Of a DNA stretch of 64,000 nt, positions 57,001-63,000 are shown one piece after another (the first letter of the stretch is position 1; the number at the start of each line of letters is the position of its first letter). A program made the position numbers. Origin of the DNA: Phallusia mammillata (lineage: Eukaryota); assembly GCA_965637545.1 (NCBI GenBank), contig OZ281495.1, positions 28,024,001-28,088,000 of the forward strand, written 5' to 3'.

Positions 57001-60000
57001 CATGTGTTTGAATGGAATTTTTTTCGAGTTTGCTTGCGAGAGCCACCTGGTGTGTAGAATCACTAGACTTATACGCCCAAAACGTAGAACTGGATTGAAA
57101 AATAAAATTTACGTTTTTTGGTGTTTGCATTTTGCTTCTATAAATTTCGTCCGTAACATCTTTACTTGCAAAATTAGTGATGAGTACCAAAACAAAAGAA
57201 TCTGTAGTGGTATATTCTCCTTAATGATAGTGCATTTAGCCCTTTTGCATGAAGTCTGTGGTAAAATTAAGCCATTTTTTCATTTAAAGGCTGATGTAGA
57301 CAAAGCAGTGGCAGCAGCAACCGCCGCTTTCCAACCTGGATCGCCTTGGCGCAAAATGGACGCATCTGACCGCGGGGTTCTAATCAACAAACTTGCTGAC
57401 TTGATTGATGAAAACAAGTACTACCTTGCGGTAAGCATCACAATTTAGTTTAAACCTGAAATCTATGGACACAAGCTATACAACACACTTTTAAGATTAA
57501 AATAATAAAGTAGTTTGTTTAGCTAGCAAGCAAATGCAACTGTTCTCTACTTTAACTCACTGCAAATTCAAATCAAATCTTAAGGAATTAACAGTAAAAA
57601 ACAAAAAATATACCCTTATTGCACCAAACACCACCATAGAAACCTACCCTTGCATATGTTCTAAAAAGCAATTTGTCCTTGTTACGTCATACAGTGCCTT
57701 GAAACACTCGACAGTGGCAAACCTTACACGCACACGTTTTTCATGGACACAACTGGTATTTCAAAACTACTTCGTTATTACGCCGGATGGACAGACAAAA
57801 TGCATGGCAAAACTGTACCCGTTGATGGCGATTACCTGAGCTACACATTGGTTCAACCCATGGGTGTTTGTGGACTCATTTTACCAGTAAGTTTAAAATC
57901 AATTTTCACAAATGTTAGAAGCATGTCTAACCTTTCCTTGGCGCGTATACATTGGTATTGTTTTGTGGCTAAAACTGACCAGTCAACCAAAAATTAGCAA
58001 AGGTTGCAGACTGCACAAGCAACAAACGAATTGCTTTGGTCCTAATAAGTAATATTGCATCACTATCACTAGGTTCATGACAATAGAACAGTCAATGACT
58101 TGACAAACAATATGCAAACAAACAGCAAGAAGTACCAACAAGGTTCAAAGTTCCGTAATAATGAAACAACACTTACTTTTTTCAGTGGAACATGCCTCTT
58201 ATCACAATGGGTATGAAGTTAGGTCCGGCGCTTGCTTGTGGCAACACGGTAGTAATCAAGCCAGACGAAAACACACCTCTTACAGCTCTGTTTCTTGCTT
58301 CGCTCACAAAAGAAGCGGGCTTTCCAGCAGGAGTTTTTAACGTAGTACCTGGCGGTCCAACAGCTGGAGCAGCACTTGTAAACCACCATGGGGTTCAGAA
58401 AATATCTTTCACTGGATCAATTGAAGTGAGTTATCATCAAAATGCGTTCACTTTTCACATCATTTTGTTTTGTTGCGATAGCATATCTTTTAAAATAAAT
58501 TAGATACGTTGGAAGTTGGAACACTATATACGGATCTGTTCATAAGTTTAATGGTGAAAATAACGGCCCAAATTGATGTGGCCTTCATATCACTGATGAT
58601 GGCATGAGCATTTGCCGAAACGTTTGAACAATAAAGCATGTCGCTTTTTACGTCTATTTGGGCCGTTATTTTCACCATTAAACTTATAAATTAGATACGG
58701 TTTTCTTAATATGCAACGTGTAGGTGTTTATTGAATTTAACTGACACACGTTTGTAAACTTTACTCTGGCAGATTGGACGAAAGATTGAAGAAGCTTCAT
58801 CAAAGACCAATATGAAGAGGTTGACTTTGGAGCTTTCCGGAAATTGTCCTAATATTATATTTGCCGATGCTGATTGTAAGTAAACAGCATATGTCCGTCA
58901 AGGCAAAGCAATACCTTTTTTGAGACAAGATTCTTTAATAGCGGTGTATGCCTCCCTTTCAATTTCCCTTGGTATCCATAAACGACCACGAAAACACTTT
59001 TTTTGCAGACAAAAATCATTTTATAGACGTTTATTGCGAACAAATGCAGCGTTACATGTACACCATAGATTTAACACTTTTGCCTTGTTTTTAGTGGACT
59101 ACGCAGTAGAGCAAGCCCACCAAGCCGTGTTCATGAACCAAGGACAAATGTGCACTGCTGGGGCTAGGACATTTGTGCATGAAGACATTTACGACGAGTT
59201 CGTCAAGAAGAGCGTGGCGAGGGCATCTAAAAAGATGGTAGCTGATCCGTTTCAGCTGTATTCAGAGCAAGGACCACAGGTATAACACTTGATCAGTGGT
59301 TTAAATAGATTTTGTATTTATCGCATTTGACGTTAAGAGCCAGTTTGTATTTAGAAAGTAATCATGCTTGAAATATGTTTTTAAATATGGAATGAAGATT
59401 GAGGTCAAATAGTTGTGCAATAACGATTGTGAAAAGTGTCATACCCAATATTCGGATTGAATACCAACTAACACAGTTGGCAATTACATGTTTGATAATA
59501 TATTTGATACAAAACCGATACACTTAGTTAAAGTTCTCTGTGGGTAGATTTAAGTTGGTCGATAGCTTGGATGATGTCTGGTCTTATACTGCTCACTGAC
59601 ACCCTAGGTCCCCAAACTTCAATTACGTTTCCCTCGCCGTCAAGCAAATATTTCCAAAAGTTCCATGTTGGTGCTCGACCAGAATTTTCTGCGGAGTAGT
59701 AAACATTATTGGGATCGAACGTTTTACACGACTGCAGTATGATACAAATTTATGAAAACATTGCACCATTTTACGTTTAACAATGGTAAATTAAATGACA
59801 TTTTGCACCAACATGTTCGTGAAGTGGTTTTATTGACAAAGTTAGGGGCATGTATAAAATCATGAAATAAATTGAAATTATTTCTTATCCCTGAACAAAT
59901 TAAGATTATTTCTTATCCCTAATGAATTTGAGATAACTGTCTACCCTAACATTACTCAACGCTTTGACAACTTGTCAAAAAAATTGGTTAAAAGCAAAAA

Positions 60001-63000
60001 AACAACCAACCTTTTAGGAATTTGTAAGCTGCGTTAGCTGAATGGTCATGAACGTCAATTTTCGCAAAAAGCGGAAATGTTGCCTGGTACTTCTGCCGCG
60101 CAAAGGTTTCAATTTCGCTGTTATCGTGGGGTTCTTGCTCGCCGAACTGGTTACATGGGAATCCAAGAACAGTAAAGGGCTCTTTTTGCTTGTCCACTAG
60201 GTCGCGTTGCAACTCAGCCAACTCCTGGTAATGTTCATGCGTATATCCGCATTCACTGGCCAAGTTAACGACCAAAGACACCTGTACATGTACAAGTTTA
60301 AACTTGTGTCAAAAATGTTTTCTACATTTTTCAAATGGCAACGAAGATTTTTTAATTGCCTTTCTTTAGTATATTGATACGAAGCTGCATTGCCTACATA
60401 ATGTTGCTGATTTGAATTGATTTTGATTTTTTGTAAAAGAAAACATAACAAAACAAACACAAATGACGTATATTAGGCCAATTGTTCCCACTACCCAGTG
60501 GTTTTTAAATACAGTTCTAATGGCACATAGTGTATTTCTGCAGAGCAATTTCCCAGGAGAGTTTGGTGTACCGACACCACAGCACTCCCGAATTTATAGT
60601 TTATTTTATTACCAATTTCCGCGCTTATCCTTCCAGTCACTAAAACAAATTTACCACCTAAATGTCACACGCCGATTAGAAACTAGGTAGCAAATATTTT
60701 GCTTTGTAACACCTACATGTTAAAGGGTGTACAAACAAACCCACACTTTCCCAATTCAGACTACTGGTAAATACGCGTTTACAGTCTGAGGGCAATTCTC
60801 CTAACGTACCAATGGAACATTCGCCGGCCATGTAGCTATTTGGTTTCCGCCTAAGTTAACACTTGCTTGCCCACGCAGATGTAAAAGTCGTCAAAGCAAA
60901 GTCTATGCTCACGCAATTCAACTGCTTTGAGTAACTTATTAACCGTATACAACACTCCTTATAAATAAAGTACGCAAATAAAGTTACCGCCAATGACTCA
61001 CTTTTCCTCGGTATTTCTCCAGCGAAACTTGCTTCCCACGAATGTTCTGGACCTTAAAACTGTAGAAACCCCCCTTACCGCACAGGACGGAGTCCATTAG
61101 CAGGGAAATCAAAGCTAAAAAATACAGAATACTCCTGCAGAAATCCATTTCCTATGAACTCCGTTTCCATTGACTGTAAATGGAAATGACGCTTGACTGG
61201 TTTCGTTGGCGGCGAAGTTCTTTTTTTTTATTTGTCTCTCGTTTTTCCCTTTTTCTGTTTCTTATCTTGGGTGGCGAAGTAATTTTAATCTCTCTCTGGA
61301 AAATGGTTTTACTGTAGTACAAAACCTTTCTTTCCTTACGCAATCATGTGATATTTGACGATTTTTGTGAAAGAGTTAAACCATAATTTAAGTTGTACAT
61401 AGTGCAGTAAATTTTGAATTGCCGCAATTCACAAATCATTTTTTTGTTTCAGATAAGCCGCAAGCATTTCGATAGCATTATGGGTTACATTAAAGCTGGC
61501 AAAGAAGAAGGGGCAAAACTGGAATGCGGAGGGTCAAGACATGGAGATAAGGGACTTTATATTCAACCTACTGTCTTTTCTGGTGTCACGGATGAAATGA
61601 AAATTGCTAAAGAAGAGGTACAAAAATCGCTTCAAGACTTCTATTACTTTTGTGTGTAGTAGTGCTAAAACCAGAATTTTAATGACGATTTGTGCATTCG
61701 TCCGCTGAACATTTTTATAAAGTTTTAAAAATGTATCATTTTTACAGATCTTCGGGCCGGTTCAATGCATACTTAAGTTCTCGACCATTGAAGAGGTTGT
61801 AGAAAGAGCAAACAATACACAATATGGCCTTGCTGCTGGCATTTTTACACAGAACGTCAGTGTTGCCCTTGAAATATCCAAAGCGCTGGAATCAGGAACA
61901 GTTTGGTGAGTTGAAATTACGAAACCTCTTTATTTCATACCTAGTATATTTTTAAACTCTTTTTACATTATTTTTTCTTCTGGTATTTCAGGGTCAACTG
62001 CTACAATGCCTTTGCTGTTCAGAGTCCATTTGGTGGTCTAAAAATGTCCGGAAAAGGAAAAGAAATGTAAGTATTCTTATGCAGTCATACACAACTTGGT
62101 TTAGTTAGATAAAACATATCGGAACGAGAAAACACCTTAACAATATGTCAGATCTACGAAATGTCTATCAGATCTACTAAAAGACCAACAAAGCTCATAT
62201 AAAAGTGAATTATTTCCCCCTGTTAATAAGAATTGAAGTCTGATTTTGAATCAGAAGCACTGTTCAAATATTGTAACTGTAAATTCAAAGATAATCAACT
62301 CTAAACTGCTCCACATATTACGTAGGGCAAGAATTTTTAGCCAACACTAACAGTTGTTTTGTCCGTCGAAGTTTTTCATTGACACAAATCTCTTTTGATT
62401 CAGGGGTGAGGAGAGTCTTCGCGAGTTTTCAGAAATCAAGACGGTGACGTTAAAACTCCCGCAGATCCAGAATATCTCTTTCAAGTCAAACGCCGTTCGG
62501 CAATACAGCGGTTCCACGTGATCACGCTGCGCCAACAGAAAAATATAAAACGAGAGCGTGTCGGCAGCGCCACCCAACGGATCGATTTGAACCATAAACA
62601 CAAACGTCTTTTTCGGCGGTGTTCAAAAACCTTTATTATTTATTAGCCTTTCGTATTTTTTCTTTTCTTTTTTTAAGCTTTTAACGTGTATTGAGTAAAT
62701 ATAAATAAGTATTGCCTGTTGGTTAGCCCTGAGAAACTGCAAAAATGCGTTTTGTGAATCGTTGCCAAGCTTTTGAGTGGATTTGGCTCGCATACGGAAT
62801 ATTACAAAACTGTTTAAGTTAAACCCGAAACAAATAAACTGGTTTTTTCTTTGCCACATTCGAGAAATATATGTTTGAAATTTATTACTTTACAAAGCGA
62901 ACGGTATATTTTGTACAACGGAAACAGAATAATGGGTGTATCTTCTAATTCCAAGAACATGTAGGCATACATCAAGTGACATTTTTTAATACTCTGCAAA

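What the first reader, a model, noticed from the sequence alone, without database searches (positions are those of the whole stretch)
59280..61452. Complete GPX7 gene nested antisense in ALDH intron 7: a peroxide/aldehyde detoxification pair
Seen: all three GPX7 exons occupy about 75% of the 2.17-kb intron, and the ATG is only about 300 nt from ALDH exon 8. The GPX7 promoter must therefore overlap the ALDH acceptor region or downstream exons. Established: GPX7 is an ER Cys-peroxidase coupled to PDI and oxidative-stress sensing, and ALDHs clear aldehydes produced by lipid peroxidation. To my knowledge vertebrate GPX7 is not nested in ALDH1A. Inference: with the ARE in intron 1, this may be a co-regulated or mutually interfering redox module created by a lineage-specific rearrangement.
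Basis: partly seen in the sequence, partly recalled or inferred. Interest (0 to 1): 0.65.

Follow-up and report, generated by a model that had tools for sequence, protein, structure and literature searches.

The report
GPX7-type gene nested in ALDH intron
A complete, intact three-exon gene for an ER-type cysteine glutathione peroxidase (GPX7-like) lies on the opposite strand inside one intron of an aldehyde dehydrogenase gene; this is an ordinary kind of gene nesting, and nothing in the sequence shows that the two genes work or are regulated together.

Summary
On the minus strand of 59280-61452 there is a complete 3-exon, 579-nt (192-codon) reading frame with GT-AG introns. Exon 2 matches Pfam GSHPx at E 1.7e-28. 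Each of the 3 exons, searched separately, has human GPX7 (2p31) as its best solved relative.

The flanking plus-strand exons are consecutive pieces of one ALDH1/2-class gene (Pfam Aldedh positions 251-310 and 312-368). My model of that gene has 11 coding exons, so this is its intron 7. ATG to stop spans 1621 of 2173 nt (74.6%). The ATG lies 304 nt from ALDH exon 8.

- "ALDH1A" is not settled. ALDH2 scores best for 2 of the 3 exons that gave hits.
- A "redox module" has no sequence support. ARE cores are not enriched (16 found, 21.2 expected), and none lies by the GPX 5' end.
- The two start codons are about 10.3 kb apart on opposite strands.
- In Drosophila, opposite-strand nesting is common, and nested pairs are less correlated in expression and function than neighbouring genes (PMC3814207).

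Synteny and expression could not be checked. Verdict: a real but ordinary nested gene pair.

The parts
61002..61148 (-). GPX7-like exon 1 (49 codons): start codon, hydrophobic N-terminal signal-like segment, first conserved strand
   Evidence: ATG at 61148 and donor GTGAGT. An in-frame stop lies two codons upstream; residues 26-48 align to 2p31 GPX7 (25.2 bits, E 1.4e-4); hydropathy maximum 2.5-2.8 over residues 6-18.
60011..60281 (-). GPX7-like exon 2 (90 codons plus 1 nt): peroxidatic Cys (ASECG), second Cys (FPCNQF), catalytic Gln
   Evidence: PF00255 GSHPx at E 1.7e-28, profile positions 25-108 of 108; best hit 2p31 GPX7 at 98.1 bits; the next are yeast HYR1 at 79.3 and GPX8 at 74.4; acceptor AG, donor GT.
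59528..59688 (-). GPX7-like exon 3 (2 nt plus 52 codons plus stop): catalytic Trp-Asn (TWNFWKY), C-terminus HREL
   Evidence: best hit 2p31 GPX7 at 44.6 bits, then GPX8 at 41.3 and 41.2; the others are at or below 24; acceptor AG, phase 1, TAA stop at 59530..59528.
60282..61001 (-). GPX intron 1 (720 nt, GT-AG, phase 0)
   Evidence: GC is 0.371, like the ALDH introns.
59689..60010 (-). GPX intron 2 (322 nt, GT-AG, phase 1); holds a 28-nt tandem repeat at 59865-59934
61149..61452 (-). 304-nt GPX 5' flank up to ALDH exon 8: presumed 5'UTR and core promoter (inferred)
   Evidence: One search gives the sequence. One search finds no TATAWA, ERSE, UPRE or ARE in 61149-61452 (the TATAWA hits lie at 61561 and 61716-61719, outside this flank) and two TGACG half-sites at 61187 and 61356. 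No expression data.
59280..59527 (-). 248-nt GPX 3' flank down to ALDH exon 7: presumed 3'UTR. It holds no AATAAA or ATTAAA.
   Evidence: One search finds only variant hexamers; the first canonical AATAAA on this strand is at 59035..59030, beyond ALDH exon 7.
59095..59279 (+). Host ALDH exon 7 (holds the catalytic Cys)
   Evidence: Aldedh profile positions 251-310, E 2.9e-14; aligns end to end with ALDH2 chain residues 284-344, with the Cys opposite chain residue 302.
61453..61617 (+). Host ALDH exon 8
   Evidence: Aldedh profile positions 312-368, E 9.2e-15. AG acceptor, GT donor, phase 0.
50852..62521 (+). Host ALDH1/2-class gene, 11 coding exons, 1608 nt of CDS
   Evidence: all 10 introns are GT-AG and the sum is divisible by 3. 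Aldedh profile positions 28-446 are covered in order by exons 3-10; exon 2 aligns to ALDH2 residues 22-54. Exon 1 is unsupported by homology.

Best explanation
Two independent, intact protein-coding genes of an unidentified, non-human animal sit in a host/nested arrangement.

The internal gene is a GPX7-type member of the GPX7/8 clade of glutathione peroxidases, with three coding exons and 192 codons. Inferred from the family: the protein enters the ER through an N-terminal signal peptide and is probably held there by a KDEL-like C-terminus (HREL). It uses a peroxidatic cysteine (in ASECG), with Gln, Trp and Asn around it, to reduce H2O2. It is then re-reduced by protein disulfide isomerase, possibly through the second Cys in FPCNQF.

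The host is an ALDH1/2-class aldehyde dehydrogenase with its catalytic Cys in place.

The internal gene is transcribed from its own promoter in or near the 304 nt between its ATG and ALDH exon 8, against the direction of ALDH transcription. The nesting is most likely a neutral or slightly deleterious accident of genome rearrangement: a DNA-level insertion or transposition of the GPX gene, introns included, into what was a short intron. It is not a functional unit. Any interaction between the genes would be interference, not co-regulation.

Shown: the gene models, family membership, catalytic residues and geometry. Inferred: localisation, reductant, promoter position and origin.
For: - GPX gene model: 579-nt frame, two GT-AG introns, and an in-frame stop just upstream of the ATG.
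- Family: GSHPx domain at E 1.7e-28. 2p31 GPX7 is the best solved relative for 3 of 3 exons, with GPX8 second for exons 1 and 3.
- Cys codon, not TGA, at the peroxidatic site. The ASECG, FPCNQFG.QEP and PTWNFWKYL columns are identical to 2p31.
- No SECIS or any other Rfam family in the window.
- No insertion between the end of exon 2 (2p31 residue 136) and the start of exon 3 (residue 140), so there is no oligomerisation loop.
- Hydrophobic core at residues 6-18.
- HREL at the C-terminus. In the KDEL reporter screen, position -3 tolerated every residue but Pro, and H worked at -4 (PMC2140024, passages).
- Host: 11 GT-AG-bounded exons summing to 1608 nt, the Aldedh profile covered in order, and the catalytic Cys opposite ALDH2 residue 302.
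- One genome, one assembly stretch: no N in the window. GC of the GPX introns and flanks matches the ALDH introns, and the intron's 3-mer profile ranks 13th of 29 tiles.
- Single copy of each gene, and no repeat of the intron elsewhere in the window.
- Without the GPX span, 552 nt of the intron remain, close to the other short ALDH introns (86-497 nt).
- Base rates: nearly 10% of Drosophila genes are nested and 71% of nested genes are on the opposite strand. Nested/including pairs are less correlated in expression and function than neighbouring gene pairs (PMC3814207 and PMC5174743, passages).
Against: - No transcript evidence of any kind, so expression, TSS and poly(A) site of the GPX gene are unknown.
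- No canonical poly(A) signal lies in the 248 nt after the stop. The transcript may therefore run antisense through ALDH exon 7, which would make the pair overlapping, not strictly nested.
- HREL does not fit the PROSITE pattern quoted in PMC2140024, and it does not occur in that paper's main text (0 occurrences).
- The signal peptide rests on a hydropathy plot, not on a dedicated predictor.
- The exon 2 donor (GTTGGT) is weak.
- Orthologues and synteny were not examined, so 'neutral accident' rests on base rates from flies, not on this lineage.
- A perfect ARE/MARE core does exist in ALDH intron 1.
Confidence: 0.82

Rival explanations
1. Sense-antisense interference pair. Because the GPX gene fills most of a short intron and runs against the host, its transcription collides with ALDH transcription. 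Its 3'UTR may also extend through ALDH exon 7, so the two mRNAs would be complementary over up to 185 nt and each would dampen the other.
For: - Opposite strands. The GPX stop lies 248 nt from ALDH exon 7, and this stretch has no AATAAA or ATTAAA.
- The first canonical AATAAA on the minus strand is at 59035..59030 in ALDH intron 6, 493 nt past the stop.
Against: - Variant hexamers (AATATA, AATACA, GATAAA) do occur in the 248 nt. From general knowledge, many animals use such variants.
- No transcript data.
- Interference would be a by-product, compatible with the best explanation and not opposed to it.
Confidence: 0.2
2. One reading: a co-regulated peroxide/aldehyde detoxification module, driven by Nrf2-type ARE elements and kept together by selection.
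For: - Both families have antioxidant or detoxifying roles.
- A perfect ATGACTCAGCA lies at 51437-51447, and a second TGACNNNGC lies 143 nt further on, in the 5' part of ALDH intron 1.
Against: - ARE cores are not enriched in the window: 16 found against 21.2 +/- 4.8 expected, and 88 of 100 shuffles reach 16. The longer form gives 16 against 11.7 +/- 3.4, and 16 of 100 shuffles reach it.
- No ARE, ERSE or UPRE lies in 61149-62100, beside the GPX 5' end.
- The start codons are about 10.3 kb apart and the genes have opposite orientation, so there is no shared promoter.
- GPX7 acts on H2O2 in the ER with PDI (PMC3824332, PMC9925728). ALDH1/2 enzymes act in the cytosol or mitochondria (recalled).
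- Nested pairs in flies are less correlated in function and expression than neighbours (PMC3814207).
- Searches for a described GPX7-ALDH nesting found nothing relevant.
Confidence: 0.05
3. Assembly artefact: the GPX segment was placed in the ALDH intron by misassembly.
For: None positive. It cannot be excluded without reads.
Against: - No N anywhere in the window.
- The ALDH profile continues without loss across the intron (310 to 312), and the intron has GT and AG ends.
- No repeats at the junctions or elsewhere that could mislead an assembler.
- Composition is uniform.
Confidence: 0.03

Closest known systems
Human GPX7 (NPGPx; PDB 2p31)
   Same: - Best solved relative of each of the 3 exons.
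- By my count of the identity lines, about 50 of 85 aligned residues are identical in exon 2 and 21 of 38 in exon 3.
- Cys, not Sec, at the active site. The ASECG, FPCNQF and TWNFWKY blocks are shared, and there is no oligomerisation loop.
- N-terminal hydrophobic leader, and a C-terminus ending in -EL/-DL.
   Different: - A 3-residue insertion after the first helix.
- The C-terminus is HREL, where human GPX7 has Arg-Glu-Asp-Leu (PMC3824332).
- As recalled, the human gene is not inside an ALDH gene. This was not checked here.
Vertebrate GPX8 (PDB 3kij, 3cyn) and the invertebrate GPx7/8-like genes of Ciona and a planarian (PMC2679728)
   Same: - Same clade. GPX8 is second best for exons 1 and 3.
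- The paper reports Cys-type GPx7/8-like genes outside vertebrates. It also reports that the Ciona gene has the same exon-intron architecture as vertebrate GPX7 and GPX8 (passages).
- The gene here also has a small multi-exon structure (3 coding exons).
   Different: - GPX8 is a membrane protein with a cytoplasmic tail (PMC3824332). The leader here has a short hydrophobic core (residues 6-18), more like a cleavable signal.
- If GPX7 and GPX8 split within vertebrates, as that paper says, this gene is co-orthologous to both and not 'GPX7' in the strict sense.
- Intron positions were not compared, because the figure is not held.
Opposite-strand nested protein-coding genes, for example Drosophila 2mit in intron 11 of timeless2 (PMC3786989, listing abstract only) and the general class (PMC3814207, PMC5174743)
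   Same: The internal gene is small, has few short introns, lies on the opposite strand and sits wholly inside one host intron.
   Different: [quoted passage not shown] Here the host intron is the second longest of the gene (2173 nt, against 5710 nt for intron 1) and is 75% filled by the internal gene.
- Internal genes are often young duplicates. This one belongs to a family conserved across animals, and no second copy was seen in the window.

Membership tests
GPX7-type glutathione peroxidase (GPX7/8 clade) | Glutathione peroxidase (GSHPx, PF00255) domain | tested here: met
   exon 2 at E 1.7e-28, 98.8 bits (cut-off 27), profile positions 25-108 of 108.
GPX7-type glutathione peroxidase (GPX7/8 clade) | Closer to GPX7/8 than to GPX1-6 or GPX4-type enzymes | tested here: met
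   2p31 GPX7 ranks first for 3 of 3 exons (98.1, 44.6 and 25.2 bits). GPX8 ranks 2nd for exons 1 and 3 and 4th for exon 2. GPX4 scores at most 57 bits for exon 2 and at most 19.8 for exon 3. No tree was built, because the exons were not joined.
GPX7-type glutathione peroxidase (GPX7/8 clade) | Cysteine, not selenocysteine, at the peroxidatic site | tested here: met
   the frame is open under the standard code; the Cys in ASECG is aligned to the same block of 2p31; no SECIS or other Rfam match in the window.
GPX7-type glutathione peroxidase (GPX7/8 clade) | Catalytic Gln, Trp and Asn around the Cys (the identity of the tetrad is recalled) | tested here: met
   the FG.QEP and PTWNFWKY columns are identical to 2p31.
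GPX7-type glutathione peroxidase (GPX7/8 clade) | No oligomerisation loop (stated for GPx7/8 in PMC2679728) | tested here: met
   Exon 2 ends opposite 2p31 residue 136 and exon 3 starts opposite residue 140, so no extra segment lies between them.
GPX7-type glutathione peroxidase (GPX7/8 clade) | Cleavable N-terminal signal sequence (GPX7), as opposed to a membrane anchor (GPX8) (PMC3824332) | tested here: inconclusive
   9-residue hydropathy means of 2.5-2.8 over residues 6-18, falling below 1 by residue 17-25. This has the shape of a signal peptide, but no dedicated predictor was available.
GPX7-type glutathione peroxidase (GPX7/8 clade) | C-terminal KDEL-type ER retrieval motif | tested here: inconclusive
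   The C-terminus is HREL. It does not fit [KRHQSA]-[DENQ]-E-L. The reporter screen found that position -3 tolerates all residues but Pro and that H works at -4. HREL itself is not in that paper's main text.
GPX7-type glutathione peroxidase (GPX7/8 clade) | PDI-coupled peroxidase activity in the ER | not testable with these tools
   Needs enzyme assay and localisation.
Host/nested gene pair | Whole coding region of the internal gene lies inside one intron of the host | tested here: met
   the CDS at 59528-61148 lies within intron 59280-61452, with 248 and 304 nt to spare.
Host/nested gene pair | The exons on both sides belong to one host gene | tested here: met
   Aldedh profile positions 251-310 and 312-368; phase 0 on both sides, GT...AG.
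Host/nested gene pair | No overlap of the internal transcript (UTRs) with host exons | not testable with these tools
   No transcript data. The absence of a canonical poly(A) signal before ALDH exon 7 leaves this open.
   Of 4 exons searched, 3 gave hits and exon 1 gave none. Exon 5: ALDH1 chains score 112.5-105.3 bits, against 103.3-102.3 for ALDH2/1B1. Exon 7: ALDH2 81.0-75.5, ALDH1A2 79.0-77.6, ALDH1/ALDH1A1 55.7-52.6. Exon 2: ALDH2 27.4, ALDH1 24.1. It is ALDH1/2-class; the subfamily is open.
ARE/Nrf2-coordinated gene module | ARE cores present beyond chance and placed at both genes | tested here: not met
   16 found against 21.2 +/- 4.8 expected; none in 61149-62100; one perfect core, in ALDH intron 1 only.
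ARE/Nrf2-coordinated gene module | Co-induction of both genes by oxidative stress | not testable with these tools
   No expression data.

The most novel reading that the evidence does not exclude
The nesting is a selected, conserved arrangement. Antisense GPX7 transcription, with a 3'UTR running through ALDH exon 7 to the AATAAA at 59035..59030, would couple ER peroxide load to ALDH output. The coupling would work by convergent-transcription interference or duplex formation, giving a reciprocal switch between two redox enzymes.
Probability: 0.06. Interest if true: 0.5.

Novelty: new member of a known kind. Interest (0 to 1): 0.18.

Why it matters
The main value is for annotation. Gene finders can miss or merge an antisense gene that fills a short intron, and the GPX7-type gene here is intact and should be called. 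It adds a GPX7/8-clade gene with a non-canonical -HREL terminus, from an animal I could not identify, to a family said to be the most conserved GPX across animals. If the transcripts overlap at ALDH exon 7, the locus would be a compact natural case for studying interference between nested genes. As it stands, it changes no open question.

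Tried and rejected
**Negative or uninformative results**
- Rfam, whole window at gathering thresholds: 0 matches. tRNA scan: 0 genes.
- Repeats around the intron: no direct repeats flank the GPX gene, only short chance-level pairs. blastn of the intron against the window gave only the self hit. tblastn of 3 GPX and 4 ALDH exons gave no second copy with E below 0.1.
- ARE scans showed no enrichment. ERSE, ERSE-II, UPRE and ARE were absent from 61149-62100. CpG observed/expected shows no island at the GPX 5' end.
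- ALDH exon 1: 0 Pfam families and 0 PDB hits at E up to 10. It rests on the ATG, the GT donor, phase 0 and a terminal ...YTK that I recall as typical of ALDH1/2 N-termini. ALDH exon 11 alone: 0 Pfam families.
- The 180-codon ORF at 55305-55844 (-) in ALDH intron 1 has only a sub-threshold DUF6626 hit (E 0.005, 17.7 bits against a cut-off of 27.3) and no recognisable Atlas neighbour (top score 0.79, recognition 969). I treated it as a probable chance ORF, not a second nested gene.
- Literature: 'GPx7 + nested + aldehyde dehydrogenase' gave 4 papers, all unrelated reviews judging by title and abstract start. 'glutathione peroxidase 7 + nested gene' gave 0 papers.
- Pseudogene or retrocopy was rejected: the frame is intact, the gene has two introns, and the catalytic residues are kept.

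**Not done**
- Exons were searched one by one. The joined protein was not searched, aligned, folded or placed on a tree.
- A first attempt to place the ALDH exon ends did not run. They were then read from in-frame translations by coordinate.
The remaining collections hold bacteria, archaea, phages, plasmids and E. coli only. Orthologues, organism identity and synteny therefore stayed unchecked.
- Structure prediction, fold search and complex prediction were not used. No claim of binding is made.
- Supplementary files were not consulted. The GPX gene lists in the supplements of PMC9925728 might name the species and locus.

Full report
**What the window is**

The window is 64,000 bases with no N and GC of 0.35-0.41 throughout. 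It carries short-intron, multi-exon genes of animal type: rhodopsin-class receptor exon fragments, an aldehyde dehydrogenase gene and a GPX7-type gene. I do not take it for human. Its GPX and ALDH exons are only about 55-60% identical to the human reference chains shown, and its introns are tens to hundreds of bases long. I could not name the organism.

**Checking the observation**

Reading 58800-62000 and the stop-to-stop frames shows three minus-strand frames with peroxidase-like translations. fixes the model:

| Exon | Coordinates (minus strand) | Length |
|---|---|---|
| 1 | 61148..61002 | 147 nt, ATG at 61148 |
| 2 | 60281..60011 | 271 nt |
| 3 | 59688..59528 | 161 nt including TAA |

- The introns are 720 and 322 nt, both GT-AG, in phases 0 and 1. 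The total is 579 nt, or 192 codons plus the stop.
- An in-frame stop lies two codons above the ATG. Any further upstream exon could therefore only be untranslated.
- The host intron is 59280..61452, 2173 nt. ATG to stop covers 1621 nt (74.6%), and the coding exons cover 579 nt (26.6%).
- The ATG is 304 nt from ALDH exon 8, and the stop is 248 nt from ALDH exon 7.

"Exons occupy 75%" should read "the gene spans 75%".

**Is it more than chance, and what is it**

I searched the spliced model exon by exon. The joined protein was not searched, folded or placed on a tree.

- Exon 2 alone matches Pfam GSHPx at E 1.7e-28. Exons 1 and 3 alone give no Pfam family.
- Against the PDB sequences, human GPX7 (2p31) is the top hit for all three exons:

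| Exon | GPX7 (2p31) | Next best |
|---|---|---|
| 2 | 98.1 bits | yeast HYR1 79.3, GPX8 74.4, GPX4 at most 57 |
| 3 | 44.6 bits | GPX8 41.3, everything else at most 24 |
| 1 | 25.2 bits | GPX8 19.7 |

- The alignments show identity through the blocks holding the peroxidatic Cys (ASECG), the second Cys and the Gln (FPCNQFG.QEP), and the Trp-Asn (PTWNFWKYL).
- The peroxidatic residue is a Cys codon, not TGA, and Rfam finds no SECIS.
- Exon 2 ends opposite 2p31 residue 136 and exon 3 begins opposite residue 140. The oligomerisation loop of the tetrameric GPXs is therefore absent, as described for GPx7/8 (PMC2679728, passages).
- The N-terminus has a hydrophobic core at residues 6-18, the shape of a signal peptide.
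- The C-terminus is HREL. [quoted passage not shown]
- HREL falls outside the PROSITE pattern. In the reporter screen of PMC2140024, position -3 accepted every residue but proline and H worked at -4 (passages). HREL itself does not occur in that paper's main text.

The gene is a GPX7-type member of the GPX7/8 clade. One paper holds that GPX7 and GPX8 split within vertebrates (PMC2679728). If so, a non-vertebrate gene is co-orthologous to both. PMC9925728 (passages) reports GPX7 as the GPX subfamily most conserved from sponges to mammals, predicted in the ER in 13 of 14 animals. Finding one here is therefore expected.

**The host gene**

Reading in-frame translations by coordinate and checking splice dinucleotides and lengths gives 11 coding exons:

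| Exon | Coordinates |
|---|---|
| 1 | 50852-50977 |
| 2 | 56688-56792 |
| 3 | 57290-57430 |
| 4 | 57695-57886 |
| 5 | 58186-58425 |
| 6 | 58773-58875 |
| 7 | 59095-59279 |
| 8 | 61453-61617 |
| 9 | 61748-61905 |
| 10 | 61992-62066 |
| 11 | 62404-62521 |

- All ten introns are GT-AG, and the exons sum to 1608 nt.
- Pfam Aldedh profile positions run in order through exons 3 to 10: 28-75, 74-135, 136-219, 216-250, 251-310, 312-368, 369-421 and 421-446.
- Exon 2 aligns to ALDH2 residues 22-54.
- Exon 1 has no homology support. "Intron 7" therefore depends on that exon being real and on there being no further upstream exon.
- The Cys in exon 7 lies opposite ALDH2 chain residue 302, which I recall as the catalytic cysteine.
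- The subfamily is not settled. Exon 5 favours ALDH1, while exons 7 and 2 favour ALDH2.

**Is the arrangement real**

- There is no gap in the assembly.
- The ALDH profile continues across the intron without loss.
- No repeats sit at the junctions.
- GC of the GPX introns (0.37, 0.31) and of the two flanks (0.30, 0.34) matches the short ALDH introns (0.26-0.37).
- The intron's 3-mer profile ranks 13th of 29 equal tiles in distance from the window mean.

Cross-species contamination is thus unlikely. A within-genome misassembly cannot be excluded without reads, but nothing suggests one.

**How it most likely works**

- The GPX product is inferred to be an ER-luminal Cys peroxidase. It would reduce H2O2 and be recycled by PDI, as described for GPX7 (PMC3824332, PMC9925728).
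- The gene must have its own promoter. The ALDH start codon is about 10.3 kb away and points the other way.
- The 304 nt upstream of the ATG hold an A-rich TATA-like run about 80 nt from the ATG (by eye), but no TATAWA, ERSE, UPRE or ARE. A compact promoter could fit there, so overlap with ALDH exon 8 is possible but not forced.
- At the 3' end, no AATAAA or ATTAAA lies before ALDH exon 7. The first one on that strand is at 59035..59030 in ALDH intron 6. Either a variant signal is used, or the 3'UTR runs antisense through exon 7. This is the one structural point that could make the pair interact.
- Without the GPX span, 552 nt of the intron remain, close to the gene's other short introns (86-497 nt). 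That fits the insertion of an intron-bearing gene copy into a short intron. It is an inference.

**The "redox module" idea**

- ARE cores are not enriched: 16 found against 21.2 +/- 4.8 expected, and 88 of 100 shuffles reach 16. The longer form gives 16 against 11.7 +/- 3.4, and 16 of 100 shuffles reach it.
- One perfect ATGACTCAGCA sits at 51437-51447, with a second core 143 nt further on, in the 5' part of ALDH intron 1. It may matter for ALDH but is about 9.7 kb from the GPX start.
- The products act in different compartments.
- In Drosophila, nearly 10% of genes are nested and 71% of nested genes are on the opposite strand. Nested/including pairs are less correlated in expression and function than neighbouring pairs (PMC3814207, PMC5174743; passages).
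- Two literature searches found no described GPX7-in-ALDH nesting. About 1.7 million PMC articles and all subscription-only papers are not searched.

**What stayed unchecked**

- Orthologues, organism identity and synteny.
- Any transcript evidence.
- Full-length phylogeny or fold, since the exons were not joined.
- Intron-position comparison with vertebrate GPX7 or ALDH genes.
- Supplementary tables of the GPX surveys.

**Verdict**

The GPX7 identification is sound at the clade level, and the ALDH is ALDH1/2-class. The pair is a new instance of a very common kind of arrangement, and no sequence evidence points to joint regulation. Interest is low. The only lead worth a look is the possible antisense overlap with ALDH exon 7.

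Noticed in passing
window 51437-51447 and 51580-51588 (+): A perfect ARE/MARE-type core, ATGACTCAGCA, and a second TGACNNNGC 143 nt further on lie in the 5' part of ALDH intron 1. They are 2 of the 16 such cores in the window. This could be a real Nrf2/AP-1-type element for the ALDH gene, but a motif alone is weak evidence.
   Followed up: partly
window 58539-58690: An inverted repeat with 41-nt arms, 93% complementary, and a 70-nt spacer lies in ALDH intron 5. It looks like a small hairpin or a MITE-like element.
   Followed up: no
window 5345-5671, 12020-12208, 18800-19081 (all minus strand): Three ORF pieces match different parts of the rhodopsin-family 7TM profile: positions 189-227, 81-124 and 1-34. 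Only the first reaches the gathering score. They may be exons of one or more intron-rich receptor genes spread over about 14 kb.
   Followed up: partly
window 55305-55844 (-): A 180-codon open frame lies in ALDH intron 1. It has only a sub-threshold DUF6626 hit (E 0.005) and no recognisable Atlas neighbour. It is probably a chance ORF and not a second nested gene.
   Followed up: partly
window 26416-26910: A 274-nt unit is repeated 1.8 times at 90% identity.
   Followed up: no
window 59865-59934: A 28-nt tandem repeat of 2.5 copies lies inside GPX intron 2.
   Followed up: no
window 48001-50000: The GC skew rises to 0.160 here, the highest of the 2-kb tiles. This is just upstream of the presumed ALDH 5' end.
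   Followed up: no
window 50852-50977 and 62404-62521 (+): The predicted ALDH is 535 residues, longer than the roughly 500-residue solved ALDH1/2 chains. The 42-residue exon 1 has no detectable relative, and I recall the C-terminus as running past the usual end. The true first exon and stop need cDNA.
   Followed up: partly
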